A stretch of 64,000 nucleotides of DNA, from contig JAHJSH010000035.1 in assembly GCA_018830525.1 (NCBI GenBank), positions 5,582-69,581 on the forward strand, given 5' to 3'. A program made the translations under genes and the position numbers. The stretch is from Nanobdellota archaeon. Its GTDB lineage: Archaea; Nanobdellota; Nanobdellia; Pacearchaeales; GW2011-AR1. Shown here piece after piece: positions 15,354 through 33,380 of this stretch (position 1 is the stretch's first letter; the number at the start of each line of letters is the position of its first letter). The notes below the pieces were generated by a model. It was not told the origin of the DNA, ran no database searches, and worked only from the letters and a program-made list of their open reading frames with translations.

Positions 15354-15364
15354 TTACTCTGGTT

Positions 15365-15981: not shown

Positions 15982-15996
15982 CACAACAACGAAAGG

Positions 15997-16155: not shown

Positions 16156-16272
16156 AGTAAATCTCCTTATACTTGCTCGTTTGAGCGGTTGTTAATGTAA
16201 TGTGGTCAACACACGTTAACGGCACATCAAAGCCTCCACTCGGTGAGTTGAATGGAGGTTGTTGGCGAGTCG

Positions 16273-16581
16273 TTAGAGGGTGGAGCGTTCACTTAGGTCT
16301 CTGAAGAACATTCCAATTTCTTCTGCGGTGGCTTGGGAGCTAATCATTGAGTCGAGTTCTTTTCTTAGGTAAGGACGTATAATCATTGTCGCCCATAACT
16401 CCCTGATTTCGAATCTTTCCACTTCATCGGCATGTATACTGATTCTGGCTCCGTCGAAGATTCTTCCGCAATCATTGAATCTCCCGATCTGGATGGTAAT
16501 GTTTTCCCCTTCTGTAGAGAGATAAGATGTTTCGAAATCTTTTTCAGTACATCGGATGTTGCGTTTTAGTTTCTTACTCAT
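16273..16581 (-). CDS. hypothetical protein
   Basis: AAGGAGATTACC before the ATG. 102 aa. Confidence 0.5.
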   Translation of the reverse strand: MSKKLKRNIRCTEKDFETSYLSTEGENITIQIGRFNDCGRIFDGARISIHADEVERFEIRELWATMIIRPYLRKELDSMISSQATAEEIGMFFRDLSERSTL

Positions 16582-16748
16582 GGTAATCTCCTTATCTAAA
16601 TGTTATGAATGTTTTTGAAAATGAGTCCGACTTACCAACCTTAAGAGAATAGAACAGAAAGGAAATCCAAAGTTCTATCTCGTATTAGCAGGAATTCGGT
16701 CGGACTCTCCAAGTATAGGCGCATGTGCTGTAGCGCATGGTCAGATGA

Positions 16749-16871
16749 TTATTCTTTGGTGTTTTCTTTAGCGGGTGGTTCTGGCTGTTCGTCATAAGAT
16801 TCGATTGGGTCTTTGAATTCTTCCGATTCGTGTTCCTGTTCCTCGATTGTTTCTTTTTTGTTCTTTGACAT
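16749..16871 (-). CDS. 40-aa acidic protein (below the ORF-track cutoff)
   Basis: AAGGAGATTTACA before ATG 16871. Preferred over the overlapping 16792..16983 ORF, which lacks an SD. Confidence 0.4.
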   Translation of the reverse strand: MSKNKKETIEEQEHESEEFKDPIESYDEQPEPPAKENTKE

Positions 16872-16892
16872 TGTAAATCTCCTTATCTTTTG

Positions 16893-17003
16893 TTAACATA
16901 AACTGATGTAGGCTGCGATAACGATTATCACGAAGCCTGTTGGATTGTTTGCGACTCGTTCTTCGAAGGCACATTTTAACCAATTGTAAATTAAATTCTT
17001 CAT
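16893..17003 (-). CDS. 36-aa membrane peptide
   Basis: AAGGGGGGAAAAACT before ATG 17003. MKNLIYNWLKCAFEERVANNPTGFVIIVIAAYISLC. Confidence 0.3.
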   Translation of the reverse strand: MKNLIYNWLKCAFEERVANNPTGFVIIVIAAYISLC

Positions 17004-17023
17004 AGTTTTTCCCCCCTTGTTGT

Positions 17024-17251
17024 TTAGGATTGAAGAAGTTTCTTTAGTTTGTGAACCATGTTCCAAATAGGTTCTGATTCATCACTCCTATCGCCAAGTC
17101 CATTTTCTCGGTTAGAGATGATTTGGTCCCAGAGTTTTAACAGAATGTATTTTAGTTCTCCCATGCAATAAGGCGTGCCTTTCACTAACTTTCGATTGGG
17201 AGGTAAAATCTCTTTCATCGTTTTAAGTTCTCGTTCGTTGAAAATATACAT
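17024..17251 (-). CDS. hypothetical protein (first gene of the SD-type array)
   Basis: AAGGAGATTTACC before the ATG. 75 aa. Confidence 0.5.
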   Translation of the reverse strand: MYIFNERELKTMKEILPPNRKLVKGTPYCMGELKYILLKLWDQIISNRENGLGDRSDESEPIWNMVHKLKKLLQS

Positions 17252-17270
17252 GGTAAATCTCCTTATTATA

Positions 17271-17437
17271 CGTATTCCGTTAGAAATACTGGTTAAAATT
17301 GTTTAGAATTTATGTGGAAAACCTTATATTAGGTATTCCGGTTGATTTTAGTAAATTTGACAGAAAGTTCACTTAGATAGAATTCTTTGGTCGTACCTTA
17401 TTCCGTAGCTATTTCCTAGCTTTTGGAGGTATTTCCT
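17271..17437 (+). promoter_or_regulatory. iteron cluster 1 (GTATTCCG-type motif, five copies)
   Basis: cgtattccg 17271, ggtattccg 17332, cttattccg 17397, ctatttcct 17409, ggtatttcct 17428, all in one orientation. An AT-rich stretch follows to 17587. Confidence 0.5.
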
Positions 17438-17587
17438 TGCCTAAATTTTTATTTTAGGTCTTTGTTTCCACGAGGTTTCTGGTGTGTTAATGAATTTAAT
17501 ATTTTTGAGGTATTAAATTGTTGTCTATGGATCTCTATTGAGATGATGTGTGGAAGTGTTTAAATTTTTGATATTTGTAAATGTGAT

Positions 17588-19543: not shown

Positions 19544-19544
19544 T

Positions 19545-19979
19545 TTATTCTTCTAGGATTCCCTTAAGCATATCTGCTCGGGATTCCTTTTGATTTAGTT
19601 CTCTTTCTTGTTCTCGAAGTTCTTTCTTCAATAGTGCAATATCTCTCCAACAACCCACCTTCTCGTTAAGTTGGATTTCAGAAATGTCAATTTGTTTTTT
19701 TCTAAGTTCAGATCTTTCTCGTGCGAACTCAGAATCGTCTTCACCTTTTGGTGCGTTTTCCATTAAAAAATTATTAATATTAGATTTCATCTTTTCACCC
19801 TCTTTGATAAAAGTGTTACTAAGAACTGTTCTTTCTTTAATGAGGTATTCGATTTCTTCGACGGTCTCTTTCAAGGAATCTACTTTCGCTTTTCCTACAG
19901 AATTAAATCCTTCAGACGTATTCCAGGTATTTCCTGAAACGTATTCCGGAGATATTCCGCTTGTAATTGGGTTTTCCAT
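19545..19979 (-). CDS. coiled-coil protein coupled to the ATPase
   Basis: AAAGATTTATAAACC (BRE/TATA) lies about 24 nt upstream of the ATG, so likely leaderless. Heptad-rich E/K sequence. Confidence 0.55.
   Translation of the reverse strand: MENPITSGISPEYVSGNTWNTSEGFNSVGKAKVDSLKETVEEIEYLIKERTVLSNTFIKEGEKMKSNINNFLMENAPKGEDDSEFARERSELRKKQIDISEIQLNEKVGCWRDIALLKKELREQERELNQKESRADMLKGILEE
19917..19959 (+). promoter_or_regulatory. iteron cluster 2 (same motif, four copies in 43 nt) inside the 5' end of CDS 19545..19979
   Basis: cgtattcca 19917, ggtatttcc 19926, cgtattccg 19940, gatattccg 19951. The copies fall in different codon phases. Confidence 0.5.
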
Positions 19980-21842: not shown

Positions 21843-22109
21843 TTAGTTTACCTCTACCCCTGTTCCAATTGCTTGGCCTGGCAAACCTTTTTCGAAGATT
21901 GCTCGAACGACGCCGTTTCCACCGTGTGCTGAAGAAATTTTACCTGAGATGATTGTTGGTTCCTTACCTGTGGATTTCCATGCCACGTTTTTACCTACAA
22001 ACTTTGTTGCTTTTTCTCGAGAATCTACGCCCGGAATTTCTATAAGGAAGTGTCTAGCTTTTTGAGTCTTTCGTCCTTGTCTAAATTGTATAACAGTTGC
22101 AGTAACCAT
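21843..22109 (-). CDS. rpl35ae: 50S ribosomal protein L35Ae (eL33)
   Basis: 88 aa. ...SREKATKFVGKNVAWKS...GKISSAHGGNGVVRAIFEKGLPGQAIG is the characteristic L35Ae pattern, a family found in archaea and eukaryotes. Confidence 0.85.
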   Translation of the reverse strand: MVTATVIQFRQGRKTQKARHFLIEIPGVDSREKATKFVGKNVAWKSTGKEPTIISGKISSAHGGNGVVRAIFEKGLPGQAIGTGVEVN

Positions 22110-22210
22110 AGTAAGTTAAGTGAAAAATTGGTTTATAAAACTTACTGCGCAAGTTTCTAAACGTATATGATTTTGGTTTATCTAGTTCTGGTGAAGCATA
22201 AATTTATTCT

Positions 22211-24067
22211 TTAATAGATTAGTTCGAATTCGCCGAATATCTTCTTTAAAGTTTCTAGCGATTTGAAATCGATCTTTGTTTCTTTGTTTCTATTTTCTGT
22301 GAGTTGTTCTTGGATTTCATTAGGGTCTGCTTTTACAAGTTTATTTCCCGATAATTTTTGGATTTTTTGTTCTTGAACTACGAAAGTGTTTTTCAAGAAA
22401 AATATCTCGGCGTTCATGTCTTTACCCTTGAGAATAAATCGCGATCGTTCTATTGAAGCTAATTCGCATCTTTGGGTATATTCTATTAGTGCGCTTGTTA
22501 TTTCGGCTGCAATTTTTCTTGCGTTGTCAACATCCCTTGACTGTTCTTGAGTAAGATTATCTTTCTTCTTACCCTTTCCTTGTTTTACTTTTGCTACTTC
22601 TCTTTTTGTCTTAGCAATTATCTTTAAATTTTCTAAGAATCTTGGGGGGAATTTTCCTTCCTTGATTAGGGTTTCATCAAATTCTTTTATGATTGCCCCT
22701 TCAGATTTCTTCTTTAGAAGCGAGCCGAGCATTCCAAAAACATCATTGTAAATTTCTTCGATTGATTTTTCTTGGACTCGTTTCTCAATTTGTTCTCTTA
22801 ACTCTTTTAATCTTTTAATGTAGTCTACCGCATTTTTAGATAATCTATCCAGCTCTTTACCATCGACGTCCCCGGGTTTTAGTTTTCCGTGTTCGTAGGC
22901 CTTCCACACCTTAATTACAATTTCATCGAGGATGTCTGCATATTTTGATTCTACCATTTTTTCTTTTTCAACAAAGATTTCTCTGAATAATTTTACTGTT
23001 TCGTAAACGTTTGGTGGTGATTGTCCGTAAAGCATTAGTAAACCTTGCGTTGGAGTTGAAATTCCCCAGAAAAGATCTAATGTTGCAACATCAAAAATTC
23101 TTTTTTGTACCGTTTCTTTAAGTTTGTTTCCGGAAGACATGAACATATCGATAGCTTCGGGGCTTGGTTTGATTTTTCCCATTCGAAGAAGAGATTTCCA
23201 GGGGAGGAAAGTTCCTCGGTCATATAATGGAATTCCGTCTCTGATGAATGTGAAGAAAACGGGGTGTGCGTCTTTTACTCCATCCCAGAACTCAGTCATT
23301 AGCCAAATCTGGACGTTTAATGTGTTTTTGTTTACTCCAGAAATTGCTTCAGCTTCGGAGATATATGAATAGATTATTCCCCGTAATTTTTCTTTGAGCT
23401 CCATTCTCGGCATTCTTTTTACGTCGGTGTCGTCGATAATTATCGCTACATCAACATCAGAATCTTTTTTTGTCGTCCCGGTTGTAAGTGATCCACCCAT
23501 TACGTAAGAGGTTACATATTTCTCGAATTTCTTTAGGACTAATGATTTGTGGATTTGTGCAACTCGGAGATGGCTTAGAATTCCTTTGTCTATAATTGGA
23601 AACGACATAGATAATGCCTCGAAGACTTCGAATTTTGAATCAAGTCCAAGGTTCCATAAGTCTACTGGAGTCATTACATGAACCCAAAATTTTTCATTGA
23701 TCTTTCTTGCTGCACTGATTGCATCTAATCGAATTTTTCCGATGTTTTTGAATTGTGTTTCGGGGATAACTGTTAAGATATGAATCAATCCTCGCTTTGC
23801 GTCTTCCTCGGAAATTTCATATTCCTCTTCAATTCTTTTCGCTGCTTGTGCCGGAATGATTCCAATAGCCTCGATACTTTTAACCTTTTTAGAAATTTCT
23901 TCCTTAAACTTTCCAATCTCTTTCTGAGTTTTATCCATCTTTTTCTTTAGGGCTTCGTCTACCTGATTAGTCATGGGTAGATCTCCCACTTTTCCTTTTG
24001 GGACGTAGTCTTTTGCCAAATTCTGTTCTACGGATTCTTCGTCAGAAGAAGATTTGTGTTCTTCCAT
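22211..24067 (-). CDS. Pol-beta-superfamily nucleotidyltransferase domain protein
   Basis: GGSLTTGTTKKDSDVDVAIIIDD (GS ... D.D motif) in the middle of a 618-aa K/E-rich protein. TATA about 25 nt upstream. Confidence 0.5.
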   Translation of the reverse strand: MEEHKSSSDEESVEQNLAKDYVPKGKVGDLPMTNQVDEALKKKMDKTQKEIGKFKEEISKKVKSIEAIGIIPAQAAKRIEEEYEISEEDAKRGLIHILTVIPETQFKNIGKIRLDAISAARKINEKFWVHVMTPVDLWNLGLDSKFEVFEALSMSFPIIDKGILSHLRVAQIHKSLVLKKFEKYVTSYVMGGSLTTGTTKKDSDVDVAIIIDDTDVKRMPRMELKEKLRGIIYSYISEAEAISGVNKNTLNVQIWLMTEFWDGVKDAHPVFFTFIRDGIPLYDRGTFLPWKSLLRMGKIKPSPEAIDMFMSSGNKLKETVQKRIFDVATLDLFWGISTPTQGLLMLYGQSPPNVYETVKLFREIFVEKEKMVESKYADILDEIVIKVWKAYEHGKLKPGDVDGKELDRLSKNAVDYIKRLKELREQIEKRVQEKSIEEIYNDVFGMLGSLLKKKSEGAIIKEFDETLIKEGKFPPRFLENLKIIAKTKREVAKVKQGKGKKKDNLTQEQSRDVDNARKIAAEITSALIEYTQRCELASIERSRFILKGKDMNAEIFFLKNTFVVQEQKIQKLSGNKLVKADPNEIQEQLTENRNKETKIDFKSLETLKKIFGEFELIY

Positions 24068-24215
24068 AATTTAATGTTGGAAATTTCATATATAAATGTA
24101 ACTACTATTAATTAATAAGAAATATGGCCCCTATTCGCAATCATGTCTTCAGAAGATAATCAGTTGTTGAAGACCTAATTGCTCACCAAGAAAGAACTAC
24201 GTTCGATTCGGAAGT

Positions 24216-24259
24216 ATGGCCCCACCAAGAATCGAACTTGGGTCTGCTCGGTGTAAACG
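24216..24259 (-). repeat. orphan copy of the 3' 43 nt of tRNA-Val plus 1 flanking nt (att-like)
   Basis: Exact 44-bp match to 31916-31959 (atggccccaccaagaatcgaacttgggtctgctcggtgtaaacg). Sequences diverge on both sides. Confidence 0.9.
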
Positions 24260-24398
24260 TAGATTATGGATAGACTACATCGGTATTTGTCGTCGATAAA
24301 ACCAGTTCAAAGTTTAAATACCCGTCGATGAAAGTTAATAAATGTTTCGTGTGGTTGGAATTGTAATACTCTCAAAAAGTACGCCACAACTGAACGAA

Positions 24399-25007
24399 TT
24401 ATTGTTTTGCCAAGATTTTCAGTTCTTTATAAGTTATGCCCAAACTACTCAATTCTTTTCTTCTATCATTTCTATCCATCCAGCTAATCTTTTCGAGAAA
24501 AATTGGAGCAAACCTTCTTAGGAAAAAACTTTTTATTTTGGGAGTAATTTTAATCCATAAAAGTATTGGAATACCATAGACTAAGATAAGTAAGGATAAG
24601 TAAGCCCCCCAACTAAGAGGGTACATTCTCGGAGAGATTTGCTCTAACAAATATGGGAGTAATATAAGTAATATCAAAAACACTAAAAAAGATATAGTAA
24701 CTGCAATCACAAAGATTTTATTACTAAATCTCCGCTTTTCAAAGAAAATAGAATTTATAAAATTTAAAATCAATTGTGAGATTACCCATAATAACATTAA
24801 TGATACAAAAGCTACAATCAGAAAAGCGGGAGAAGCCAGGGAAGTAGAGATTCCCAAAAGGATCATCGCAACAGATATAGAAACTATCATAAGAAGAAGG
24901 GCAAGAATCGCATTATCTATTGTTCCCAGGGTAACCTCCCCCCTAATGATGTTCAATTTAAAATTAATCTTTTTCAGTTCCTTCAGTATTAAAGTTCTTT
25001 CAGCCAT
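24399..25007 (-). CDS. polytopic membrane protein
   Basis: 202 aa with 4-5 TM helices. The island promoter motif lies upstream. Confidence 0.5.
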   Translation of the reverse strand: MAERTLILKELKKINFKLNIIRGEVTLGTIDNAILALLLMIVSISVAMILLGISTSLASPAFLIVAFVSLMLLWVISQLILNFINSIFFEKRRFSNKIFVIAVTISFLVFLILLILLPYLLEQISPRMYPLSWGAYLSLLILVYGIPILLWIKITPKIKSFFLRRFAPIFLEKISWMDRNDRRKELSSLGITYKELKILAKQ

Positions 25008-25045
25008 TTTATCTTCTTATCCCTAGCAGGAAATAGAGAATCAAA

Positions 25046-25062
25046 CCTTAAAAATCTTTAGA
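25046..25062 (-). promoter_or_regulatory. island-type BRE/TATA 17-mer
   Basis: Minus strand TCTAAAGATTTTTAAGG, about 39 nt upstream of ATG 25007. Confidence 0.5.
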
Positions 25063-25067
25063 AATAA

Positions 25068-25964
25068 TCACATTATAGTCACCCTTTTTCGGTCTGGATC
25101 TTTTAGGGATGGATCCTCTTTTAACATAGTTTTCGCAAAATCAAATTTATTTTCATTGGAAAAGATAAATCTTGTTGAATATCTGACTTGCAAATCTCTC
25201 TCCCGAATAATATTACGATAATCTCTGGTATTCTTTTTACTAGATTCTTTCTTAAATAAAATAGGATCACAGATAGTTAGGCATAAATTTGGAGTCAATG
25301 GGAAATGTACCTCAATACCTGTCGATGTTAAACCTAAATTTCCATAAGGAAAATGATCTATTGAGTTATGTTTAGCTACGGGATCATCTGAACTCCAGAA
25401 CGGCGTTTTTAGTTTATTGGAAATAAGAATCCATTTCATTTCCTTTATTATTCTTTTAAACATCTCTTTATTTTCAAGTATCATTCTCTTGTGGCCTTTC
25501 CGGAGGCTTGATTTCTCCATTGACTTTTCAGCTTCTAACCTCAGTTTTTCTGATAAGTGGCCTTCAAATTTTTCTAAAAATTGTTTAGAAGTTTGTTTGA
25601 CTGATATGCGCGTTTCCTTCGTCCTTATCATCTGCACAGCAATAAATTCGGCGATAGAATCCAAGTCTTCAGAACTTATTTTGGCTAAATCCTTGCTATT
25701 GATTAAATTAGTTATGGCTCCGCCGAATCTAGATTCAATATTGCATAATGTTTTCTCTGCAATTTGTTCTTCATCAACAGTATCATAGAATTCTTCTTCA
25801 AAAGCTATGTTCTCTATGTTTGTCTGAAATATTTCTTCAGTTTCTTTGTCAAAAACCCAAATATAATATTTCTTCCCATTATAATTTGAAAAATTTCTCA
25901 AATAAACTCTTGGGACATAATGCTGTAATCTAACCTTTTGTTCTATTTTGACCATAAAATACAT
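25068..25964 (-). CDS. DUF4238-like protein
   Basis: N-terminal QHYVPRVYLRNFS matches the recalled DUF4238 hallmark (HY.P.FYL..F). The true start may be Met4. Confidence 0.6.
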   Translation of the reverse strand: MYFMVKIEQKVRLQHYVPRVYLRNFSNYNGKKYYIWVFDKETEEIFQTNIENIAFEEEFYDTVDEEQIAEKTLCNIESRFGGAITNLINSKDLAKISSEDLDSIAEFIAVQMIRTKETRISVKQTSKQFLEKFEGHLSEKLRLEAEKSMEKSSLRKGHKRMILENKEMFKRIIKEMKWILISNKLKTPFWSSDDPVAKHNSIDHFPYGNLGLTSTGIEVHFPLTPNLCLTICDPILFKKESSKKNTRDYRNIIRERDLQVRYSTRFIFSNENKFDFAKTMLKEDPSLKDPDRKRVTIM

Positions 25965-25975
25965 TAAAAATCAGA

Positions 25976-25992
25976 CATTAAAAATCTTTAGA
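25976..25992 (-). promoter_or_regulatory. island-type BRE/TATA 17-mer
   Basis: Minus strand TCTAAAGATTTTTAATG, upstream of CDS 25068..25964. Preceded by a half-copy acattaaaaatc. Confidence 0.45.
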
Positions 25993-26091
25993 CTCAATCC
26001 CATTAACCTCTGCCAACCTCTTAACAATCTCCACAAGCTCATTCCATTCCCTTAAAGACATGCAAGCCATCATCCCTTCATCCTCTTCCAT
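25978..26091 (-). CDS. 37-aa hypothetical protein (below the ORF-track cutoff)
   Basis: MEEDEGMMACMSLREWNELVEIVKRLAEVNGIESKDF. TATA-like GTATATAAAG about 25 nt upstream of ATG 26091. Confidence 0.3.
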   Translation of the reverse strand: MEEDEGMMACMSLREWNELVEIVKRLAEVNGIESKDF

Positions 26092-26204
26092 GAAAATAAA
26101 TTGCGCAGCACTTTATATACGCGCGCCATAACTTTTCAGGGGCGCAACTTTTTGAAAATTGTATTCGGAGTTAACTTTTTATATCCCATTTCTATAGTTA
26201 TTTT

Positions 26205-27404
26205 ATGAAGACTAAATCTATTATTACAACACTATTTTTATTTATGCTAATTTCTTCTACAATTGTTTCTGCAGAAAATAATGATTTTGAGATAGGGACT
26301 ATAAGTGTAAAGACTCCTGCAAGTTATCAAGATAGTTATGCAGTTATGAAGGTAAGGATAACCTCACTTAATAGCGTTTGTGATCAAAGTTGTAGTTGGT
26401 CCGCTACAGGGGGAGATGCAGGTACATTTGATTTAGTTGATGATGATTTTTATTCTTTAGAATTTAACTCAAATGCAAAATCAGGACAAGGAAGTGTTAA
26501 TGGGGTTCTAGATGTGAGTTGTTCTGAAGAGTGGTATTGTGGGGGATCGGATTCGGGTACCCAGTCTTTTTCCCATAGTTATCCATTTTTAGGAGATGGT
26601 CAATGTGAAACGACCAATAATCGGGAAGATTGTACAAATGCTAAATCTGATTGTACTTGTTCTTCTGGGAAAAGTTGCATAGATGATAAGGGAGATTCAT
26701 CAAGAAGTGATTTAGATTCAAGGAAATGTGCAACATATTGCGGGAATGGTATTAAAGAGTCTCCCATCGAAACTTGCTTAACCTGTCAATCAGATGTGGG
26801 AAAATGTGATGGAATTCCTTGTAACTCCGGGGGTGAATGTGAAGGCAGTTATTGTGTTCACGGAAAATGTTGGAATGAACCCTACAAGGTGGGGGACGGA
26901 TCATGTGATTTGAATGAAGGAGAGGATTGTAAAAACTCTGTAGCAGATTGTGCTTGTGGAAATAATGAGCGTTGTGGTTCCCAAAGGGTATGTGAGACTT
27001 GGTGTGGTAATAATGTATGTGAATCATTTGAAGCGGGGAAATGTGAAGCAGATTGTCAATGGTGTGGCGATGGTGAATGTGATTCCAGTAAGGGAGAAAA
27101 CTGTAATTCTTGTGATTCAGATTGTGGGGTTTGTGAGGATGAAGAGTATAACCAGGAACTCCAGACACAGACACAGGATGTAATAAGCGAGGGACTAAAA
27201 AGCTCATCACAAAAACAGAAGATAATCAGCTATTCTGCAATCGGATTAATTTTATTAGTAATCTTAGGATACATTGGATTCAAGTTTATTCTAAGTAAGA
27301 AGGCTCAGTCTAAGATTATCGATAAGGTCGAAAAGGACTTGAATATTAAGAAAACAAAATCAAAAAGAAAGACAAAGAAGAAAAAGTCCAAAAAGAAAAA
27401 ATGA
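26205..27404 (+). CDS. secreted Cys-rich repeat protein with C-terminal TM anchor and poly-Lys tail
   Basis: Signal peptide. Repeated CGNG/CGDG.C...C..DCG.C modules. TM helix plus KKTKSKRKTKKKKSKKKK. Confidence 0.65.
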   Translation: MKTKSIITTLFLFMLISSTIVSAENNDFEIGTISVKTPASYQDSYAVMKVRITSLNSVCDQSCSWSATGGDAGTFDLVDDDFYSLEFNSNAKSGQGSVNGVLDVSCSEEWYCGGSDSGTQSFSHSYPFLGDGQCETTNNREDCTNAKSDCTCSSGKSCIDDKGDSSRSDLDSRKCATYCGNGIKESPIETCLTCQSDVGKCDGIPCNSGGECEGSYCVHGKCWNEPYKVGDGSCDLNEGEDCKNSVADCACGNNERCGSQRVCETWCGNNVCESFEAGKCEADCQWCGDGECDSSKGENCNSCDSDCGVCEDEEYNQELQTQTQDVISEGLKSSSQKQKIISYSAIGLILLVILGYIGFKFILSKKAQSKIIDKVEKDLNIKKTKSKRKTKKKKSKKKK

Positions 27405-28747
27405 AATTCTCTGAAAAGGAAATTATTATAGGAATAATCTTAATAATTATGGTAGTTGCATTCTCTATCAATATTTTCTGGGCAGACCCCGTGAACGTTA
27501 ATTTTTGTGGCGATGGAAAATGTACTGGGTCAGAAGTAGGAGAGTGCAAAATTGACTGTGATTGGTGTGGCGATGGTTATTGTCAATCTAACGAGGACTG
27601 CTCTTCTTGTTCAAATGATTGTGGCGTATGTGGTTCTGGCTCATTTTGTGGCGATGGAGTTTGTAATCTGGGGGAATGTAATTCGGCTTGTTGGAATGAT
27701 TGTAGTTATCTTGAATGTGAGGATGGAATTTGTGATGAAGAAAAAGGAGAAAATTGCGTCAATTCTCCCAATGATTGTAGTTGCTCTGAGGGATACTGTG
27801 ATTCGGATTCTCAACAATGCGTCTATCAGAGTTGCGGAAATAATAACTGTGAAAGTCACGAATCCTATTTGAATTGTCCAAATGATTGTAGCGGAGTTGC
27901 ATATTCTGCAGAGGATAATTCTGGATCAAATTATCCAATTATTTTTGTGCATGGGCATTCTGTTGGTGGGGGAGATAGTTCTTTCAGTTTACATACCTTT
28001 ACGGATTTTCAGGATAAATTGGCAAGTGATGGGTTATATGAGGATCGTGGATATATTTTAGCAAGTGAAGAAAAAAATGATTTTACTGAAGGACAATGGT
28101 CTAATACCCTAAAACCTCTTTCCTTCAGAACAACATATTACTTGGGGGAATACAGTTCAATTACAGATTCAATTTTACAGGATGATAATCATCCAATATC
28201 TGAATATTCCACAAGACTTTCGAAGGTTGTAGCCAATGTTCTTTATGCTACTGGGAAAGATAAGGTAATTATTATTGCCCATTCTATGGGGGGATTAGTT
28301 TCTAGAGATTATATAAAAAATCGTGGTGGGGAGAACAAAGTTGATAAATTGATTACAATTGGAACTCCAAATCATGGGACTTACGGTTATTCTTCATTCG
28401 CCTGTGAAAGCCCCCTCTCAAGATCTTCTCCATCTCCTGAATGTGACGACATGAATAGTGAAAGTGAATTTATAGTAAACTTAAATTCTGGAGACGAAAC
28501 TCCAGGGAATATAGATTATTTAGCTATAATTGGAAAGGGGGAATCTGGACTAGATGATTGGGGGTTATTTTGCCCAGGGGATGAAGATAGCGATGGAGTG
28601 GTCTGCGAGTCTAGTGCTCATCTTTCCGGAGCCACAATCTATGAGTATGAGAAGAAATCTTCAGTAGATAGGAGATTACATAGCGCACTAGTACATCCCT
28701 CTGAAGTTCCAGAAGTTTACAATAAGATCGTAGAATTTTTAGGATAA
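27401..28747 (+). CDS. Cys-rich repeat protein fused to an alpha/beta-hydrolase (lipase/esterase) domain
   Basis: ATGA overlap with the upstream gene. CGDG.C modules, then IIFVHGH and nucleophile elbow AHSMGG. Confidence 0.7.
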   Translation: MKFSEKEIIIGIILIIMVVAFSINIFWADPVNVNFCGDGKCTGSEVGECKIDCDWCGDGYCQSNEDCSSCSNDCGVCGSGSFCGDGVCNLGECNSACWNDCSYLECEDGICDEEKGENCVNSPNDCSCSEGYCDSDSQQCVYQSCGNNNCESHESYLNCPNDCSGVAYSAEDNSGSNYPIIFVHGHSVGGGDSSFSLHTFTDFQDKLASDGLYEDRGYILASEEKNDFTEGQWSNTLKPLSFRTTYYLGEYSSITDSILQDDNHPISEYSTRLSKVVANVLYATGKDKVIIIAHSMGGLVSRDYIKNRGGENKVDKLITIGTPNHGTYGYSSFACESPLSRSSPSPECDDMNSESEFIVNLNSGDETPGNIDYLAIIGKGESGLDDWGLFCPGDEDSDGVVCESSAHLSGATIYEYEKKSSVDRRLHSALVHPSEVPEVYNKIVEFLG

Positions 28748-29136
28748 TTCTTCATCTTCAGATATTTCATAATCAACCTTTCAGTTCTTTTAGAAATGTT
28801 TACCTTGCTTCCCGGCTTCCAGTGAGCCACAGATTTTATCTCATGTCTCGGTCTCAATCTCCCACTTGCCTTAATTAAGAACACTTTTGCATGATTAACA
28901 ACTCTTCGGCCTTTATTGTCATGCCATTGGTATCCTTTGTAGCTAAAAAGATATTTTGTTTTCTTAGTCCAAAGACCAGTTTCTTCCCTAAGTTCTCTCA
29001 TCGCCGCCTTCTTACGAGATTCTCCCTTATCTGCTCCACCCCCGGGAAGAGCAAATACCTTTCTTCTTCCAGCAACCACCAAGATTCCTTTTTCAGATTC
29101 AACAATTGCCACGCCTTTTTTTCTTATTCTTGTCAT
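28717..29136 (-). CDS. NUDIX hydrolase
   Basis: NUDIX box GGGADKGESRKKAAMRELREETGL (G.5E.7REU.EE.GU). Confidence 0.8.
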   Translation of the reverse strand: MTRIRKKGVAIVESEKGILVVAGRRKVFALPGGGADKGESRKKAAMRELREETGLWTKKTKYLFSYKGYQWHDNKGRRVVNHAKVFLIKASGRLRPRHEIKSVAHWKPGSKVNISKRTERLIMKYLKMKNYPKNSTILL

Positions 29137-29140
29137 TTTA

Positions 29141-29860
29141 TCAATAAATTCCGATCAAATATTCTTTATCTTTATCAGAGGTTCTCGCGTCACACTCCCT
29201 AACCATTGGAGCCATCACATCCCACCTATACTCATCTAAATAGATTGTTTTATTGTTATAGTTGCACCATTTTTTACCTCCACACGCATCCCAAAAATCC
29301 TCCCCCATTGGATGTTCCAACCCCAATAAGTGTAATACCTCATGAATTAATGGCCCTGGCAATGCATTCTCACAGACAGTGGGATCATAAAGAACGACTT
29401 CTCCTGGAGCGTATATGTTAGAACCTTCATAATACGAAATAAATGCCTCCGCAATTGTTTCATAACCATCCCCCCTAAAAGGTTGCAGTTCTGTATCACA
29501 TACAAAAAATATATCTGGTGTTGAAGAACTATTCTTTTCAAAAGTTACTGCCCCCAATGTTTCGTTTGTGATAAAATCCAAAGCCTCATTTATTTTTCTA
29601 TTAAACCAATCCTGGTTACAGGGAGAGTCATACTTTCTATCTGTTGTCTCATATGCCCATGTCAATGGCATATGGTCCCAATGCATCTCGGAAGTGTCTG
29701 AGAAGGGATCTTCATCAGATATATTATTTTCATAAATTACATTTCCGGTAATTGAGCCATCAATCCTTGAAGAATTCCCTAACGTAGAAAGCCAAAAGAG
29801 ACCCCCAAAAACCAAAACTACTAACCAAACTGTATCGCTAGTTTTCCATCGATCTACCAT
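29141..29860 (-). CDS. secreted zinc metalloprotease, metzincin-type
   Basis: HEVLHLLGLEH matches HExxHxxGxxH. N-terminal TM/signal segment. Confidence 0.7.
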   Translation of the reverse strand: MVDRWKTSDTVWLVVLVFGGLFWLSTLGNSSRIDGSITGNVIYENNISDEDPFSDTSEMHWDHMPLTWAYETTDRKYDSPCNQDWFNRKINEALDFITNETLGAVTFEKNSSSTPDIFFVCDTELQPFRGDGYETIAEAFISYYEGSNIYAPGEVVLYDPTVCENALPGPLIHEVLHLLGLEHPMGEDFWDACGGKKWCNYNNKTIYLDEYRWDVMAPMVRECDARTSDKDKEYLIGIY

Positions 29861-29880
29861 AAGATTTCCACAAAAACAAT

Positions 29881-29897
29881 CCTTAAAAATCTTCCCA
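29881..29897 (-). promoter_or_regulatory. island-type BRE/TATA motif
   Basis: Minus strand TGGGAAGATTTTTAAGG, 21 nt upstream of ATG 29860. Confidence 0.5.
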
Positions 29898-29902
29898 ATA
29901 AT

Positions 29903-31090
29903 CTAATACTTTATCCTAATCTGTTTCCCGTCTTTTGAATCATAAACATAGTAGTTAGTTACGCCTTTCTCAACAGTTACTTTCTGCCCATTTTCACAAT
30001 TGAATCCATTTAAAACATAGGAATTAGTACTTTCCACACCTGCCGGCTTCCATTCAGAACTAACTGCAGTATACCAACGATAGTTGATAGTCCCCGAACT
30101 ACCAGTTTCCCAACGAGAAACTATCAGATCATCACAATAAATCCAATTTGGAAATTGATTTTTATATTTCCCAACATAACAAGACCCTACATTATTCTCT
30201 ATTGTCCAGACATCTAGGTTTATTAGGGCCTGGGTACTCAGTTGCATCCCAGATAGAGAATCAAATTTTTCTTTTGTTAAAAGGGTTTCACCAGTATAGA
30301 TCATTGTAGGACATAAAAGTTTATCCTCAGACAATCCCGAAGTATTTTGAGGAGAATCACTAATTATGTCAGTGAAGGAACCCGTGAGGGAACTAAGGTA
30401 CCCAAGATTTCCAACAACTAGTATCAAAATAAGAATAAGTGTGGCCCACGGTCGTGAACTAGATTTCAATCTTATTTTTTTAAGTATGATAATTGCACTT
30501 GCTAGAAAAAAACCAATAATCAGGGATGTGAAAAATCCTCCAGGAGAAGCTTTATTTTTAAGTATTAACTCATTTACTATCCATACAACATTTGAATAAA
30601 CCAAAAAATAAAAAATAAACCAGTCCATCCTAAAGGAGTATTTATGATCATGGCTCCGAACAAGTTCCACCACTATAGAGATAATAATTGCCGTGAGTAA
30701 AGTTATTAGAAGGTTGTTTGCGATGGACAGTTTGCCAATTGCAAAATTACTTATTAAAACCCCGATAGTACAAATAATGACCCACTTAGCTATATCTATC
30801 GCTTGGCTTACAGTCCCATTAAAGTCCATTTTATTTTTCCCCATATCTGAATTATTATTAACACTCTTGACTTCTTTAAAATCCTTTCTGTGCCTATAAT
30901 TTATTGCAGTTGTCTTTTTATGTTTAGTTTTCGATAAAGAATTCCTTTTCAGCCCAGAACAATTATGATCTTCCGGAAGGATATGCTTGTCACAATGTCT
31001 TTCCCCACAAAATTTACAAGAATGGGGCATCCCAGTTATTCTCCCACCACAATAATTACATCGGCTAGGACCTTTCTTTCTATGGGCCAT
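29903..31090 (-). CDS. AN1-type zinc-finger membrane protein
   Basis: CNYCGGRITGMPHSCKFCGERHCDKHILPEDHNC fits the AN1 C/H spacing. It is followed by several TM helices and an extracellular domain. Confidence 0.65.
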   Translation of the reverse strand: MAHRKKGPSRCNYCGGRITGMPHSCKFCGERHCDKHILPEDHNCSGLKRNSLSKTKHKKTTAINYRHRKDFKEVKSVNNNSDMGKNKMDFNGTVSQAIDIAKWVIICTIGVLISNFAIGKLSIANNLLITLLTAIIISIVVELVRSHDHKYSFRMDWFIFYFLVYSNVVWIVNELILKNKASPGGFFTSLIIGFFLASAIIILKKIRLKSSSRPWATLILILILVVGNLGYLSSLTGSFTDIISDSPQNTSGLSEDKLLCPTMIYTGETLLTKEKFDSLSGMQLSTQALINLDVWTIENNVGSCYVGKYKNQFPNWIYCDDLIVSRWETGSSGTINYRWYTAVSSEWKPAGVESTNSYVLNGFNCENGQKVTVEKGVTNYYVYDSKDGKQIRIKY

Positions 31091-31110
31091 AGAATACCCA
31101 ACAATTCCAA

Positions 31111-31127
31111 CCTTAAAAATGTTTAGA
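31111..31127 (-). promoter_or_regulatory. island-type BRE/TATA motif
   Basis: Minus strand TCTAAACATTTTTAAGG, 21 nt upstream of ATG 31090. Confidence 0.5.
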
Positions 31128-31130
31128 AAT

Positions 31131-31598
31131 TCACTTTCTCTTTGGTTTCAAAATAGAATAGCCTTTTTTTATTAAATGGTCTTCATGGGTGCGATTTGCT
31201 GTTGCCCCAATAATTATACAAAAAAGGATACTTCCAATCCATCCAAAGAATGAAGCTATCAATAAATTTCCTATAAACACCAATAACATCATCCCAATCA
31301 TTCCCTTTACTAAAAACCATAAGGGGCCGAAGAAAAATGCCCAGCCATTAAAACCAATCCCCACTTCTTCGATATAACCAGATGCTTTTTGTTTATAGAT
31401 TCTTTTCCCCAATTTATCATTTCTTTCTTCTTCTTTGAGCTTTTTTTCAATTCTCTTTTTTTCTTCCTTTTCTGTAATTTCTTTTAATTTTAAAATTGAT
31501 TTTCTCTTAGGAAAACAATTTTTACAATATTCTCCATCAGAATCAGTATACCCTTCAAAAACTCCTAGCTTTTTCTTACATCCCAAACATTCTCCCAT
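31131..31598 (-). CDS. zinc-ribbon membrane protein
   Basis: Start moved to Met52 (ATG 31598), about 25 nt downstream of the promoter motif at 31619-31635. MGECLGCKKK...CKNC, then TM helices. Confidence 0.5.
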   Translation of the reverse strand: MGECLGCKKKLGVFEGYTDSDGEYCKNCFPKRKSILKLKEITEKEEKKRIEKKLKEEERNDKLGKRIYKQKASGYIEEVGIGFNGWAFFFGPLWFLVKGMIGMMLLVFIGNLLIASFFGWIGSILFCIIIGATANRTHEDHLIKKGYSILKPKRK

Positions 31599-31618
31599 AA
31601 AACATCCACACATTCGAA

Positions 31619-31635
31619 CCTTAAAAATCTCTCCT
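31619..31635 (-). promoter_or_regulatory. island-type BRE/TATA motif
   Basis: Minus strand AGGAGAGATTTTTAAGG. Confidence 0.45.
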
Positions 31636-31915
31636 TTTTGGCGCCCCTGCCAAGTTATTGCGCTATTATATAAATTCAGGCGCAGTTTCTCCTTATGGAT
31701 GACGAATGGGAACCTGTGATATGTTTTCCTTATTCTAAATGGATTGAGCATGTCAAAATAATTGAAGAGCTCATTGCGTTTTCACAAGAAAGAAAGAAAG
31801 AAATTGCGTAAGAAACGGTCAATAACGAGTCGACCTTCGAGGGTATCTCGTTAGCGGCGTGTATAATTTTGAAGAAATTTGAATGAAGAAAAAGAAGTTT
31901 TGTCGAAGAGAAAAC

Positions 31916-31959
31916 ATGGCCCCACCAAGAATCGAACTTGGGTCTGCTCGGTGTAAACG
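31916..31959 (-). repeat. 44-bp direct repeat copy inside or abutting tRNA-Val (att-like)
   Basis: Identical to 24216-24259. Confidence 0.9.
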
Positions 31960-31987
31960 AGATGGTCTGCCATTAGCCTATGGGGCC
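31917..31987 (-). tRNA. tRNA-Val(UAC): tRNA-Val (anticodon UAC)
   Basis: GGCCCCA-TA-GGCT-AATGGCA-GACC-A-TCTCG-TTTACAC-CGAGC-AGAC-CCAAG-TTCGATT-CTTGG-TGGGGCC-A. One mismatch each in the D and anticodon stems. No encoded CCA. Confidence 0.8.
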
Positions 31988-32135
31988 GCCATAATAGAAC
32001 AATAAAAATCTCACTTTTAAATCTAACTAATTCTATCAACGAAATTTTTATAAAGGAGATGTTCTATCTGATTTGATGAAAAAGTAGCTTCGAAGAAGCT
32101 TCATGTTTCATTTTATTAAAAATGGATATTAAAAA

Positions 32136-33020
32136 ATGAAAAAGGTGTTTGTTGTTTTGATGTTTTTGATGTTGGTTGGCGGAGCCTTGGCTATGACTTC
32201 ACCGATTAGGATTCAGGTTGGGGCAGGGAATGATGTTAGGTTGAATGCTCGAGATTCTACAACAGGTGTTACAATTGGAAATTATAAGGATGTGGGAATC
32301 GCAGATGAAAATGGATTATTTGAGACTAGAATATATTCCTTATTGGATCTAAATGGCGCAGTATTTCATGTTAAGGTTTATTCTGGATTGACATTGCTTC
32401 AAGATAAACAGTTTGATGCTTCAGAGGTTAGTGAGCCTTTGTTGTTTGATTGTACTAGTGAGTGTTTTAGTTCTACTTATGAATATATTGTTGAGGGAGT
32501 TGAGCCCGTTGTGGGGGTTGAGGAAGAATTGGAGACTGTTGATGGGATAATTGAGGAGAGTACCGATGAAACGATAGAAGGGGAAATTGTTGTTGATGAC
32601 GGAGAAGTTATTGAAACAGGTTTTAGTGGGATGGCTATATTTGTTAAAGAGGATGGTTCGATTAATTGGGTTTATTCTGTTGGGGCTGGAGTTGTTGTTT
32701 TGCTATTATTGATTGTTTTAATTGCTCTTGCCGTTCGTCATTCTAAAAAAGGGGAGGGAAAAGAAGTAGCTTTAGATGATGAAGAGAAAGAGTTAGAGGA
32801 TATGGAAGAGAAGGTTAAAGAGACGGAGAACAAGATTAAGAAAGTTAAGGAGAAAAAGGATAGAAGGATAAAAATTTATAATGCTAAGATTAAGTTGGCT
32901 GAAGAAGAGAGAGAGTTAAAGGAGCTTGAAGAAGATGGAGATAAGGCTGAAGTTGAGAAACAAGAAGAAGTTGTTGAGAAAGCTGAGGACAAAGTTGACG
33001 ACGCTATTGAGCAGAATTAG
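32136..33020 (+). CDS. secreted/TM-anchored protein with K/E-rich coiled-coil tail
   Basis: Signal peptide, one TM helix, then a charged heptad region. Confidence 0.55.
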   Translation: MKKVFVVLMFLMLVGGALAMTSPIRIQVGAGNDVRLNARDSTTGVTIGNYKDVGIADENGLFETRIYSLLDLNGAVFHVKVYSGLTLLQDKQFDASEVSEPLLFDCTSECFSSTYEYIVEGVEPVVGVEEELETVDGIIEESTDETIEGEIVVDDGEVIETGFSGMAIFVKEDGSINWVYSVGAGVVVLLLLIVLIALAVRHSKKGEGKEVALDDEEKELEDMEEKVKETENKIKKVKEKKDRRIKIYNAKIKLAEEERELKELEEDGDKAEVEKQEEVVEKAEDKVDDAIEQN

Positions 33021-33138
33021 TTTCTAGATCTTTGTTGAGATTTTCTGTTGATTTATTGACATAACCGCATCGTGCGCATTTGAAGTCGCTGTCGATTTTT
33101 TCGTATCGTGTTGAGTTGCATGCCGGACATTTTTTCAT
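33004..33138 (-). CDS. 44-aa zinc-ribbon protein (below the ORF-track cutoff)
   Basis: MKKCPACNS...CARCG. GGTTTATAAG about 25 nt upstream of ATG 33138. Confidence 0.4.
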   Translation of the reverse strand: MKKCPACNSTRYEKIDSDFKCARCGYVNKSTENLNKDLETNSAQ

Positions 33139-33380
33139 TATAGTTATTGGAAGGATAAACTTATAAACCAATCTTTTGATTAATCATTGTAAAACATAGT
33201 TTGGAGCGGTTAAAACCGTTCGTTTAAGCTCTTGGACTCCGGTCGCAAAGGGCTGAAGAGTTCAAGATTAATTCTTGACAAATTACAAATACGAAAATGA
33301 TACTCAAAGGGCATAACCTTTTAGGTTACAAGAATCTGCAAGCAGGCGAGAACCCTTGTCGTATCGATAAAAATAATACA

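What the first reader, a model, noticed from the sequence alone, without database searches (positions are those of the whole stretch)
24216..31959. 7.7-kb island bounded by an exact 44-bp direct repeat of the 3' half of tRNA-Val, with no integrase
**Seen in the sequence**
- atggccccaccaagaatcgaacttgggtctgctcggtgtaaacg occurs at 31916-31959 and again at 24216-24259. The two copies have the same orientation.
- The first copy is the 3' end of an intact minus-strand tRNA-Val(UAC), running from the discriminator into the anticodon loop. The second is an orphan fragment.
- Flanking sequence diverges immediately on both sides of each copy.

**Established knowledge**
- An intact tRNA, then cargo, then a displaced 3' tRNA fragment is the classic attL/attR footprint of site-specific integration into a tRNA gene.

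**Unusual**
- None of the nine or more ORFs inside resembles a tyrosine or serine recombinase.
- I found no split SSV-type int fragments reading across either repeat.
- The element may therefore be a decayed remnant, be mobilised in trans, or use an unrecognised recombinase.
Basis: partly seen in the sequence, partly recalled or inferred. Interest (0 to 1): 0.7.

Follow-up and report, generated by a model that had tools for sequence, protein, structure and literature searches.

The report
Integrase-less cargo island in tRNA-Val
A 7.7-kb block of accessory genes was inserted by site-specific recombination into the tRNA-Val gene of a Woesearchaeota-like (DPANN) archaeon; it has lost its own integrase, belongs to a small family of similar integrase-less islands, and is a fairly ordinary kind of mobile-element relic.

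Summary
There is an exact 44-bp direct repeat at 24216-24259 and 31916-31959. It equals nucleotides 29-71 (+1) of an intact minus-strand tRNA-Val(UAC).

The segment is a real insertion. Related metagenomic genomes (L009, L014) join the two flanks through a single tRNA-Val.

No recombinase is present. This holds for the nine ORFs, for all 97 six-frame segments of the island, and for the whole 64-kb window searched with an integrase-family HMM.

The island is not an orphan. Three other integrase-less islands (L029, L030, L013-E1) share several features:
- the same att;
- a ~90-nt arm next to the orphan att;
- a 33-44-aa ORF with its promoter.
All three others also share a ~150-nt arm next to the tRNA. 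Their cargo differs.

The orphan-side arm has the same layout (core, 11 nt, 16-nt motif, TATA) as sites immediately upstream of a tyrosine integrase gene with the pNOB8-type YxxR signature. That gene sits beside tRNA-Val genes, and in L013 beside the identical 44-mer.

Best reading: a CIME-like derivative that lost its integrase gene and was moved by an integrase supplied in trans. The window copy is partly decayed on the tRNA side. This is a known kind of element in an under-studied archaeal lineage, of moderate interest.

The parts
24124..24215 (-). Older, degenerate tRNA-Val 3' fragment ('scar') in the host flank. It reads ATGGCCCC...CACCAAGAAAGAAC...GTTCGATTC.
   Evidence: Read directly. 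The same scar follows the tRNA or the orphan att in L009, L011 and L030.
24216..24259 (-). Orphan att copy: a displaced 3' part of tRNA-Val (nt 29-71 plus 1). It is inferred to be the host's original copy if strand exchange occurs in the anticodon loop.
24260..24346 (+). X-arm. It consists of an 11-nt spacer, a 16-nt motif TAGACTACATCGGTAT (24271-24286), a conserved block TCGTCGATAAAACCAGTTCAAAGTTTAA (24290-24317), a TATA-like AAAGTTTAAATA (24309-24320) and an ATG at 24342. It is read as a remnant of the attP arm, promoter and start codon of a lost integrase gene.
   Evidence: - 90.8% identical to L030, 75.9% to L029 and 77.5% to L013-E1.
- Same core, 11 nt, motif layout as the integrase-bearing sites L013-E2 and L027.
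- 17/28 identity at the fixed offset, p about 1.3e-4.
- TATA/leader similarity is only suggestive (p 0.016-0.04).
24399..25007 (-). Cargo: 202-aa multi-pass membrane protein.
   Evidence: only sub-threshold Pfam hits.
25068..25964 (-). Cargo: 298-aa DUF4238 protein, a candidate anti-phage defence gene.
   Evidence: Pfam PF14022 at 2.1e-41. PADLOC DUF4238-Pers at 2.2e-8.
25978..26145 (-). Conserved small ORF (37 aa, 25978-26091) with its TATA promoter. It is the only protein shared by all four integrase-less islands.
   Evidence: - In-frame indels against L013.
- Family P0094-P0100.
- Present in L029, L030 and L013.
- No Pfam, PHROG or PADLOC hit.
26205..27404 (+). Cargo: 399-aa Cys-rich secreted or membrane-anchored protein.
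   Evidence: Shares Cys-rich repeats with the next gene (D1).
27401..28747 (+). Cargo: 448-aa protein with a Cys-rich N-terminal part and a lipase / alpha-beta hydrolase domain.
   Evidence: Lipase_2 at 1.3e-9 and PGAP1 at 2.9e-8.
28717..29136 (-). Cargo: 139-aa NUDIX hydrolase, shared with the L029 island.
   Evidence: PF00293 at 2.7e-13. 96% amino-acid identity to the L029 NUDIX.
29141..29860 (-). Cargo: 239-aa secreted protein resembling a matrixin-type Zn-metalloprotease (HEVLHLLGLEH).
   Evidence: Peptidase_M10 at 0.0013, below the curated cut-off. Motif read.
29903..31090 (-). Cargo: 395-aa membrane protein with a zf-AN1 domain. Its N-terminal domain is shared with L029.
   Evidence: zf-AN1 at 3.8e-7. 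62% identity over 72 aa to L029.
31131..31751 (-). Cargo: Zn-ribbon plus DUF2628 membrane protein. The ORF is 206 aa, but gene callers give 155 aa starting near 31598.
31752..31915 (+). Degenerate Y-arm. Only a trace remains of the ~150-nt arm conserved in L029, L030 and L013-E1. The terminal motif TAGACCGGAACGGT next to att is missing.
   Evidence: Alignment A8..
31916..31959 (-). att copy that forms the 3' part of the functional tRNA. It is inferred to have been supplied by the element.
31917..31987 (-). Intact tRNA-Val(UAC), the integration target.

Best explanation
The region 24216-31959 is an integrated genetic element. It entered the chromosome of a Woesearchaeota-like DPANN archaeon by tyrosine-recombinase-type site-specific recombination in the anticodon-loop-to-3'-end segment of tRNA-Val(UAC).

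**What is shown**
- It is an insertion relative to sister lineages.
- It carries no recombinase.
- It belongs to a family of at least four integrase-less islands with the same att, the same ~90-nt arm at the orphan-att end, and a conserved 33-44-aa ORF with its promoter. Cargo is variable.
- In this copy the cargo is a DUF4238 candidate defence gene, two Cys-rich secreted proteins (one with a lipase domain), a NUDIX hydrolase, a metalloprotease-like protein, and zf-AN1, DUF2628 and other membrane proteins.

**What is inferred**
- The arm is the remnant of the attP arm, promoter and start codon of an integrase gene. That gene belongs to a tyrosine-recombinase family with the pNOB8-type YxxR signature and sits beside tRNA-Val genes in related elements.
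- The integrase gene was deleted once, in the ancestor of these islands.
- Since then the islands have been integrated or excised by an integrase supplied in trans by an integrase-bearing relative, or in cis after tandem accretion. This is how bacterial cis-mobilizable elements (CIMEs) behave.
- The window copy has also lost the conserved motif of the tRNA-proximal arm, so it may now be poorly mobilisable or fixed.
For: **Insertion**
- L009 and L014 have the left flank, a single tRNA-Val and the right flank contiguous at 75-82% nt identity.
- L010 and L011 have the tRNA followed directly by the homologue of window 24182-24215.

**No recombinase**
-.

**Family of integrase-less islands**
- L029: same host synteny, island of about 4.1 kb.
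- L030: island of about 2.1 kb with an exact orphan att. Its X-arm is 90.8% identical to the window's, against 73% for host intergenic DNA and 86% for the adjacent helicase gene.
- L013-E1.
- All four share the small ORF.
- L029, L030 and L013-E1 share a ~150-nt Y-arm at 84-85%.

**Link to an integrase**
- In L013 the identical 44-mer is followed by an 11-nt spacer, the motif TAGACCAGAACGGTAG, a TATA box and a tyrosine recombinase (PF00589 6.9e-15, phrog_1 integrase 5.5e-21).
- Its box II reads YVLR.
- The window has the same layout at the same offset (17/28, p about 1.3e-4).
- Homologues of this integrase lie beside tRNA-Val(TAC) genes in L018-L021, L026 and L027/L028.

**Recombination after integrase loss**
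- The integrase-less junction block TCGTCGAYAAAAYCAGTTCAAAGTTTAA is shared by the window, L030 and L013-E1. L029 has a diverged version (GCGTCGATAAAATCAGTTCAAGATATAA). It is absent from the integrase-bearing arm.
- Four about equally distant host lineages (NTase 81-84% nt) show all four combinations of tRNA orientation and island presence or absence, with clean empty sites.
- L013-E1 sits in a different context, in tandem with an integrase-bearing element. Two assemblies of what appears to be the same sample agree on this.
- The orphan att is 44/44 in the window and in L030, although neighbouring non-coding DNA has diverged by 10-30%.
Against: - No helper integrase is present in the 64-kb window. 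Its presence in this genome is unknown.
- The window's Y-arm is degenerate and lacks the att-adjacent motif. This fits decay better than an active element.
- Three of the four islands sit in the same chromosomal locus of related species. Vertical inheritance with cargo turnover, plus precise loss elsewhere, cannot be excluded.
- The NUDIX, small-ORF and (for L029) X-arm identities are similar to host divergence.
- The L013 tandem could be a mis-join across the 44-bp repeat in short-read assemblies.
- The closest homologues of the L013 integrase are named as Planctomycetota MAG proteins, so its host is uncertain.
- Similarity of the TATA and leader region is only suggestive (p 0.016-0.04).
Confidence: 0.6

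Rival explanations
1. Immobile fossil. One ancient integration by an integrase-bearing element occurred in the common ancestor of these Woesearchaeota, followed by loss of the integrase. The island has been inherited vertically since. Differences between lineages come from ordinary deletions, insertions and an inversion of the whole tRNA-island unit. No trans-mobilisation ever took place.
For: - The window, L029 and L030 islands occupy the same locus.
- Shared genes and the L029 X-arm differ about as much as host genes do.
- The window's Y-arm is decayed.
- No integrase is present in 64 kb.
Against: - Empty sites in L009, L014 and L012 are clean. They hold a single intact tRNA with no orphan att and no arm remnants. 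That would require precise excision after integrase loss.
- The orphan att is still 44/44 in the window and L030, while adjacent non-coding DNA diverged.
- The window-L030 X-arm (90.8%) is closer than host intergenic DNA (about 73%).
- L013-E1 lies in an unrelated context.
Confidence: 0.3
2. Self-mobile element with an unrecognised recombinase among its ORFs. Candidates would be the conserved small ORF, DUF4238 or one of the Zn-ribbon membrane proteins.
For: Several ORFs have no assigned function. The small ORF is conserved in all four islands.
Against: - The only protein common to all four islands has 33-44 residues and is acidic. That is too small for a recombinase.
- DUF4238, the 202-aa, 206-aa and other cargo proteins are not shared between islands.
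- The arms match those of a conventional tyrosine integrase.
Confidence: 0.05
3. Artefact: an assembly mis-join, or a local duplication of a tRNA fragment with no insertion.
For: A 44-bp repeat can confuse short-k assemblers. The Logan k=31 graph is ambiguous at the repeat.
Against: - A k=141 assembly spans both junctions.
- The same architecture recurs in independent samples and species, L029 and L030.
- Relatives have the two flanks adjacent.
Confidence: 0.02

Closest known systems
CIMEs (cis-mobilizable elements) derived from ICEs/IMEs, e.g. ICESt1/ICESt3-related islands of Streptococcus thermophilus (defined in PMC5704250)
   Same: - Flanked by attL and attR at the 3' end of a target gene.
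- Has lost its integration genes but kept the att sites and an arm.
- A related integrase-bearing element can sit in tandem (the L013 arrangement).
- Related copies carry different cargo.
   Different: - Archaeal (DPANN) host, with no conjugation module anywhere.
- The putative helper has a pNOB8-type YxxR signature.
- Mobilisation has not been demonstrated.
- In the window copy one arm is degenerate.
Archaeal integrated elements 'captured' at tRNA genes, and SSV-type 'suicidal' integrases (PMC8371274, PMC7253208)
   Same: - Integration in an archaeal tRNA gene.
- The att reaches from the anticodon loop to the 3' end.
- The element remains in the chromosome without a working integrase.
   Different: - In SSV-type elements the int gene contains att and is split into int(N) and int(C) at the two ends.
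- Here no int fragment exists at either end beyond a promoter and start-codon remnant.
- The related integrases start downstream of att.
pNOB8-type archaeal integrase elements (R...YxxR...Y; PMC8371274)
   Same: - The integrase family linked to this att (L013, L026, L027) has YVLR/YLLR in box II.
- att lies outside the gene, immediately upstream of its promoter.
   Different: - The window island has no such gene.
- The family is at most about 31% identical to integrases of annotated archaeal viruses and plasmids.
- It carries a C-terminal Zn-ribbon.
tRNA-linked genomic islands built by tycheposons in Prochlorococcus (bioRxiv 10.1101/2020.12.28.424599)
   Same: - A tRNA gene acts as a recurrent hotspot.
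- Partial tRNAs and degenerated elements accumulate.
- Cargo is enriched in defence and niche functions.
- An older degenerate att scar is also present here (24124-24215).
   Different: - Tycheposons are defined by their own integrase and replication modules.
- Here a set of integrase-less units keeps conserved arms.

Membership tests
Site-specifically integrated element in a tRNA gene (attL/attR island) | Direct repeat identical to the 3' part of the target tRNA, with an intact tRNA at one end and an orphan fragment at the other | tested here: met
Site-specifically integrated element in a tRNA gene (attL/attR island) | Empty site (flanks joined through one tRNA) in related genomes | tested here: met
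   L009 and L014. L012 is also empty, with an inverted tRNA.
Site-specifically integrated element in a tRNA gene (attL/attR island) | Element-encoded integrase next to an att site | tested here: not met
   Only a promoter and arm remnant is present at 24260-24346.
CIME (cis-mobilizable element) | [quoted passage not shown] | tested here: met
   Definition taken from PMC5704250.
CIME (cis-mobilizable element) | Derived by deletion from an integrase-bearing element with the same att specificity | tested here: inconclusive
   - The arm layout matches the integrase-bearing sites L013-E2 and L027.
- Promoter and leader similarity is only suggestive.
- No integrase-bearing island with the same cargo was found.
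CIME (cis-mobilizable element) | Excision or transfer driven by the integrase of a related element, in tandem accretion or in trans | not testable with these tools
   The evidence is indirect only: the L013 tandem, the pattern of occupied and empty sites across four lineages, and exact orphan att copies.
SSV-type (suicidal) integrase element | att lies inside the int ORF, so int(N) and int(C) fragments read across the two att copies after integration | tested here: not met
   - The ORF from 24216 has 27 codons, and the one from 31916 has 29 codons within the tRNA.
- Homologues start at MKKxYG, about 60 nt downstream of att.
- The HMM found no int fragment.
pNOB8-type integrase element | Tyrosine recombinase with R...YxxR...Y that stays intact on integration | tested here: not met
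   The feature is present in the related element L013 (YVLR) but absent from the window island.
Provirus | Capsid, packaging or other virion genes | tested here: not met
   PHROGs gave only NUDIX and families of unknown function. There were no matches in viral contigs.
Transposon / IS / casposon | Transposase or Cas1, with terminal inverted repeats and a short target duplication | tested here: not met
   No such Pfam family was found in any frame. The ends are a tRNA direct repeat, and no terminal inverted repeats were found.

The most novel reading that the evidence does not exclude
The conserved arms and the small-ORF promoter may form a fixed platform at tRNA-Val. On this platform, integrase-less cassettes carrying defence and cell-surface cargo would be actively exchanged among DPANN archaea.

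The exchange would be serviced in trans by a tyrosine integrase with the pNOB8-type signature. That integrase is carried on a separate element, which brings its own second tRNA-Val gene next to a palindromic attP-like site. The arrangement would resemble a helper and satellite (CIME-like) system in archaea.

Close homologues of the same integrase occur in contigs binned as Planctomycetota. This would hint at element traffic between DPANN archaea and bacteria, or at systematic mis-binning.
Probability: 0.2. Interest if true: 0.6.

Novelty: new member of a known kind. Interest (0 to 1): 0.36.

Why it matters
Mobile elements and routes of gene exchange in DPANN archaea are poorly charted. This locus shows that tRNA-Val is a recurrent recombination hotspot in a Woesearchaeota-like group. 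At this site, surface, secreted and candidate defence genes are swapped on islands that have no integrase of their own.

If trans-mobilisation is confirmed, it would extend the CIME/satellite concept to archaea. It would also name a concrete integrase family, att core and arm motif to test.

For annotation, the lesson is practical: 'no integrase' does not mean 'no mobile element'. The arm next to the orphan tRNA fragment still identifies the family.

Tried and rejected
- **Viral collection.** Three scans found nothing: the 44-mer, the integrase, and the X-arm block.
- **SSV-type split integrase.**
  - In L013 the att 44-mer extends the int ORF by 35 codons (MAPPRIELGSARCKR...), which looked like an att-in-gene arrangement.
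  - About 70 homologues start at the downstream Met, and a TATA box lies between att and that Met.
  - I therefore treat the extension as spurious.
- **DUF87 module in the window.**
  - The window's DUF87 ATPase plus 144-aa gene (17588-19979) could have been part of an integrase-type element.
  - It is only 26-28% identical to the DUF87 of the integrase elements, the 144-aa protein is unrelated, and the pair is conserved in relatives.
  - It is not part of this island.
- **Logan k=31 contigs.** These cannot separate the integrated form from an empty site plus circle, because the graph is identical in both cases.
- **Weak internal similarity.** The N-terminus of the 206-aa ORF matches 26044-26148 only weakly (E 5e-4). 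This is probably promoter-like sequence. The direct-repeat families D2, D4 and D5 are ordinary promoter motifs.
- **Failed or limited searches.**
  - The JGI contig carrying the identical 37-aa ORF (P0095) could not be retrieved.
- **15-nt arm motif.** Taken alone it is not significant window-wide (expected 0.68 matches). Only its fixed offset from att is informative.

Full report
**Observation.** The 44-mer ATGGCCCCACCAAGAATCGAACTTGGGTCTGCTCGGTGTAAACG occurs exactly twice in the window, at 24216-24259 and 31916-31959, in the same orientation. It never appeared in shuffled sequence. ARAGORN and Rfam both call an intact tRNA-Val(TAC) at 31917-31987 on the minus strand. The repeat is tRNA nucleotides 29-71 plus one base. 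This runs from the 5' edge of the anticodon loop to the discriminator. That is the identity block expected when strand exchange takes place in the anticodon loop (established knowledge, reviewed in PMC8371274). The copy at 24216 is an orphan. The flanks differ immediately outside both copies. None of the other four tRNAs has a second copy.

**Source and reality of the structure.** The window is part of a 74-kb MEGAHIT k141 contig (ena:ERZ27247117). A separate Logan assembly (SRR6514730, k=31) yields three contigs that each stop 30 nt inside the repeat. One of them is 7716 bp, which equals the island interior plus 30+30 nt. The repeat is therefore real in a second assembly, and k=141 spans both junctions. 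The gene content includes ribosomal proteins L35Ae and L10e and has about 36% GC. The same tRNA occurs in GTDB genomes titled 'Candidatus Woesearchaeota archaeon'. Together these place the host among Woesearchaeota-like DPANN archaea.

**It is an insertion.** Scanning public contigs for the 44-mer gave ten loci.
- In L009 and L014, the NTase-side flank (window 21990-24215), a single tRNA-Val and the 294-aa-gene flank (31960-33141) are contiguous at 75-82% identity.
- In L010, L011, L016 and L017, the tRNA is followed directly by the homologue of window 24182-24215 and then by housekeeping genes.
- In L012 the same flanks hold one tRNA in the opposite orientation and no island.

It is not met in the way that would indicate a duplication. 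Relatives lack the whole 7.7 kb.

**No recombinase.** Pfam assigns the large ORFs as follows:
- a 202-aa membrane protein;
- a DUF4238 protein;
- two Cys-rich secreted proteins, one with a lipase / alpha-beta hydrolase domain;
- a NUDIX hydrolase;
- a matrixin-like protein (below the curated cut-off);
- a zf-AN1 membrane protein;
- a DUF2628 Zn-ribbon membrane protein.

All 97 stop-to-stop segments of 35 aa or more between 23981 and 32198 gave no integrase, transposase, resolvase or Cas1 family. An HMM built from 74 members of the integrase family described below found nothing in the six-frame translation of the whole 64-kb window (best E 0.017, on a Zn-ribbon). PHROGs gave no virion genes. 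PADLOC matched DUF4238 to a candidate defence model.

**The ends are informative.** One 44-mer locus, L013 (SDBV01031626.1), carries the exact 44-mer outside any tRNA.
- It is followed by an 11-nt spacer, a 16-nt motif (TAGACCAGAACGGTAG), a TATA box and a tyrosine recombinase gene (PF00589 6.9e-15; phrog_1).
- The ORF can be extended back through att, giving MAPPRIELGSARCKR. About 70 homologues start at the downstream MKKxYG, so att lies just upstream of the gene and not inside it.
- Box II of the protein reads YVLR, the pNOB8-type R...YxxR...Y signature (definition in PMC8371274).
- Its best matches among annotated viruses and plasmids are archaeal, at 23-31% identity.
- The window has the same layout at the same offset after its orphan att: an 11-nt spacer, TAGACTACATCGGTAT, a TATA-like box and an ATG at 24342.
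- Identity to the L013 arm at that fixed offset is 17/28. Only 16 of 127,946 window positions reach this level.
- Similarity of the TATA and leader part is only suggestive (p 0.016-0.04).
- Homologues of the integrase lie next to tRNA-Val(TAC) genes in every other locus examined except one. These are L018-L021, L026 (whose integrase belongs to a protein cluster with a member named Pacearchaeota) and L027/L028, where the tRNA has an intron. The exception is L023.

**Sister islands without integrase.** L013 also holds, next to the integrase unit, a 1.7-kb module (E1). It is bounded by a 14-nt partial att and the 44-mer. Its orphan-side arm is 77.5% identical to the window's and includes a block (TCGTCGAYAAAAYCAGTTCAAAGTTTAA) that the integrase-bearing arm lacks. 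E1 and the window also share a small ORF (43 and 37 aa) with its promoter and in-frame indels. Searching with that ORF led to two more islands.
- **L029.**
  - The host synteny matches the window: DUF87, 144 aa, MTase, L16, L35Ae and NTase on one side, and the DEAD helicase on the other.
  - The tRNA-Val faces the other way.
  - The island is about 4.1 kb. It carries zf-AN1, CAP and NUDIX genes (NUDIX 96% amino-acid identity to the window's), the small ORF, three small genes, the X-arm and an orphan att with one mismatch.
- **L030.**
  - It has a tRNA-Val, an island of about 2.1 kb (an HTH protein, a ParB-like protein and the small ORF), an X-arm 90.8% identical to the window's, and an exact orphan att.

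Neither island has an integrase. L029, L030 and L013-E1 also share a ~150-nt arm next to the tRNA-side att (84-85%), ending in TAGACCGGAACGGT. In the window only a degenerate trace remains and that motif is gone.

**Interpretation.**
- *Shown.* This is a genuine site-specific insertion. There is no recombinase in cis. The island is one of a family of four integrase-less islands with common ends and variable cargo. An integrase family is tied to tRNA-Val and, once, to this exact att.
- *Inferred.*
  - The X-arm is what remains of the integrase end of an ancestral element.
  - The integrase-less junction is shared, so the integrase was lost once. The islands were recombined afterwards by an integrase acting in trans, or in cis after accretion.
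- *Support for later recombination.*
  - Four roughly equidistant host lineages (NTase 81-84%) show all four combinations of tRNA orientation and occupancy, with clean empty sites.
  - The orphan att is still 44/44 in the window and in L030, while neighbouring non-coding DNA has diverged.
  - The window-L030 arm is closer than host intergenic DNA.
  - E1 lies in an unrelated context beside an integrase unit, in two assemblies of what appears to be the same sample.
- *Against.*
  - No helper is present in 64 kb.
  - The window's Y-arm is decayed.
  - Three islands share one locus, so vertical descent is possible.
  - L013 could be a mis-join across the repeat.
  - The nearest integrase homologues are labelled Planctomycetota.

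**Comparison with known systems.** Functionally this is closest to bacterial CIMEs, which are att-flanked and have lost their integration genes but can be mobilised by a related element (PMC5704250). It also resembles archaeal elements 'captured' at tRNA genes. It is not an SSV-type element, a provirus, a transposon or a casposon (see the membership table). The tRNA hotspot with an older scar (24124-24215) recalls tycheposon-built islands.

**Verdict.** The added value is the discovery of the arm remnant, the sister islands and a candidate integrase family. It is a new member of a known kind. Interest is moderate (0.36), mainly because it lies in DPANN archaea and offers a testable helper and satellite hypothesis.

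Noticed in passing
window 24124-24215: An older, degenerate second copy of the tRNA-Val 3' end lies in the host flank. It reads ATGGCCCC, then about 55 nt, then CACCAAGAAAGAAC..GTTCGATTC. The same scar follows the tRNA or the orphan att in L009, L011 and L030. This suggests an earlier integration event at the same site.
   Followed up: partly
L012 6959-7080; L015 227-305; L029 6886-7078; L030 1-146 (compared with window 31912-32033): In four related lineages the tRNA-Val gene and its promoter, together with the island when one is present, are inverted between the same flanking genes. The inversion may have been integrase-mediated.
   Followed up: partly
window 25978-26091 (-), promoter to about 26145: A conserved acidic 33-44-aa ORF (MEEDE..MACMSL..WNE.VEIV..LAEVNG) with its own TATA box. 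It is present in all four integrase-less islands and has seven database relatives. It matches no known family. Variable cargo genes tend to follow it.
   Followed up: partly
window 25068-25964 (-): The DUF4238 protein matches the PADLOC candidate defence model DUF4238-Pers (2.2e-8). The island therefore carries a possible anti-virus gene.
   Followed up: no
L013 4826-4898; L018 3362-3434; L019 4597-4669; L026 5060-5130: The integrase-bearing elements have a complete tRNA-Val(TAC) gene that differs in sequence from the att. It lies 70-190 nt from a palindromic attP-like site (inverted motif, anticodon-arm core, direct motif) just upstream of int. In L018 and L019 the core-plus-motif segment is flipped relative to L013. 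This is unexplained; the gene might serve as a replacement tRNA.
   Followed up: partly
P0023, P0024, P0030, P0076 versus P0086: Integrases 70-87% identical to the L013 integrase are named as Phycisphaerae, Anaerohalosphaeraceae or Planctomycetes MAG proteins. Some lie on contigs of 131-535 kb. A cluster at 57% identity includes a Pacearchaeota protein. This points either to mis-binning or to an element family that spans domains.
   Followed up: no
window 13000-19979: A DUF87 (HerA/FtsK-like) 651-aa ATPase and a 144-aa gene are followed by a run of about ten very small ORFs, near tRNA-Thr and tRNA-Cys. The region looks like a mobile element but is conserved in L012 and L029. No tRNA repeat was found.
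   Followed up: partly
window 25039-25075, 25969-26005, 29853-29892, 31083-31122, 31591-31630, 31990-32018: A recurrent motif (minus strand AGATTTTTAAGGTT) lies about 25-30 nt upstream of start codons of island genes and of the tRNA. It is presumably the host-type BRE/TATA promoter of leaderless genes. The island therefore uses host-like promoters.
   Followed up: no
window 31131-31751 (-): The 206-aa ORF is probably over-extended. Gene callers give 155 aa, and a promoter motif sits at 31591-31630 inside the longer ORF.
   Followed up: no
L027 6239-6342: A tRNA-Val with a 33-nt intron was missed by ARAGORN but found by Rfam (49.7 bits). It lies 238 nt upstream of an integrase of the same family, in a 30%-GC contig that looks DPANN-like.
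   Followed up: yes
window 26205-28747: Two adjacent secreted proteins share repeated Cys-rich modules (CGDG.C...). The repeats also appear at the DNA level as direct-repeat family D1.
   Followed up: no
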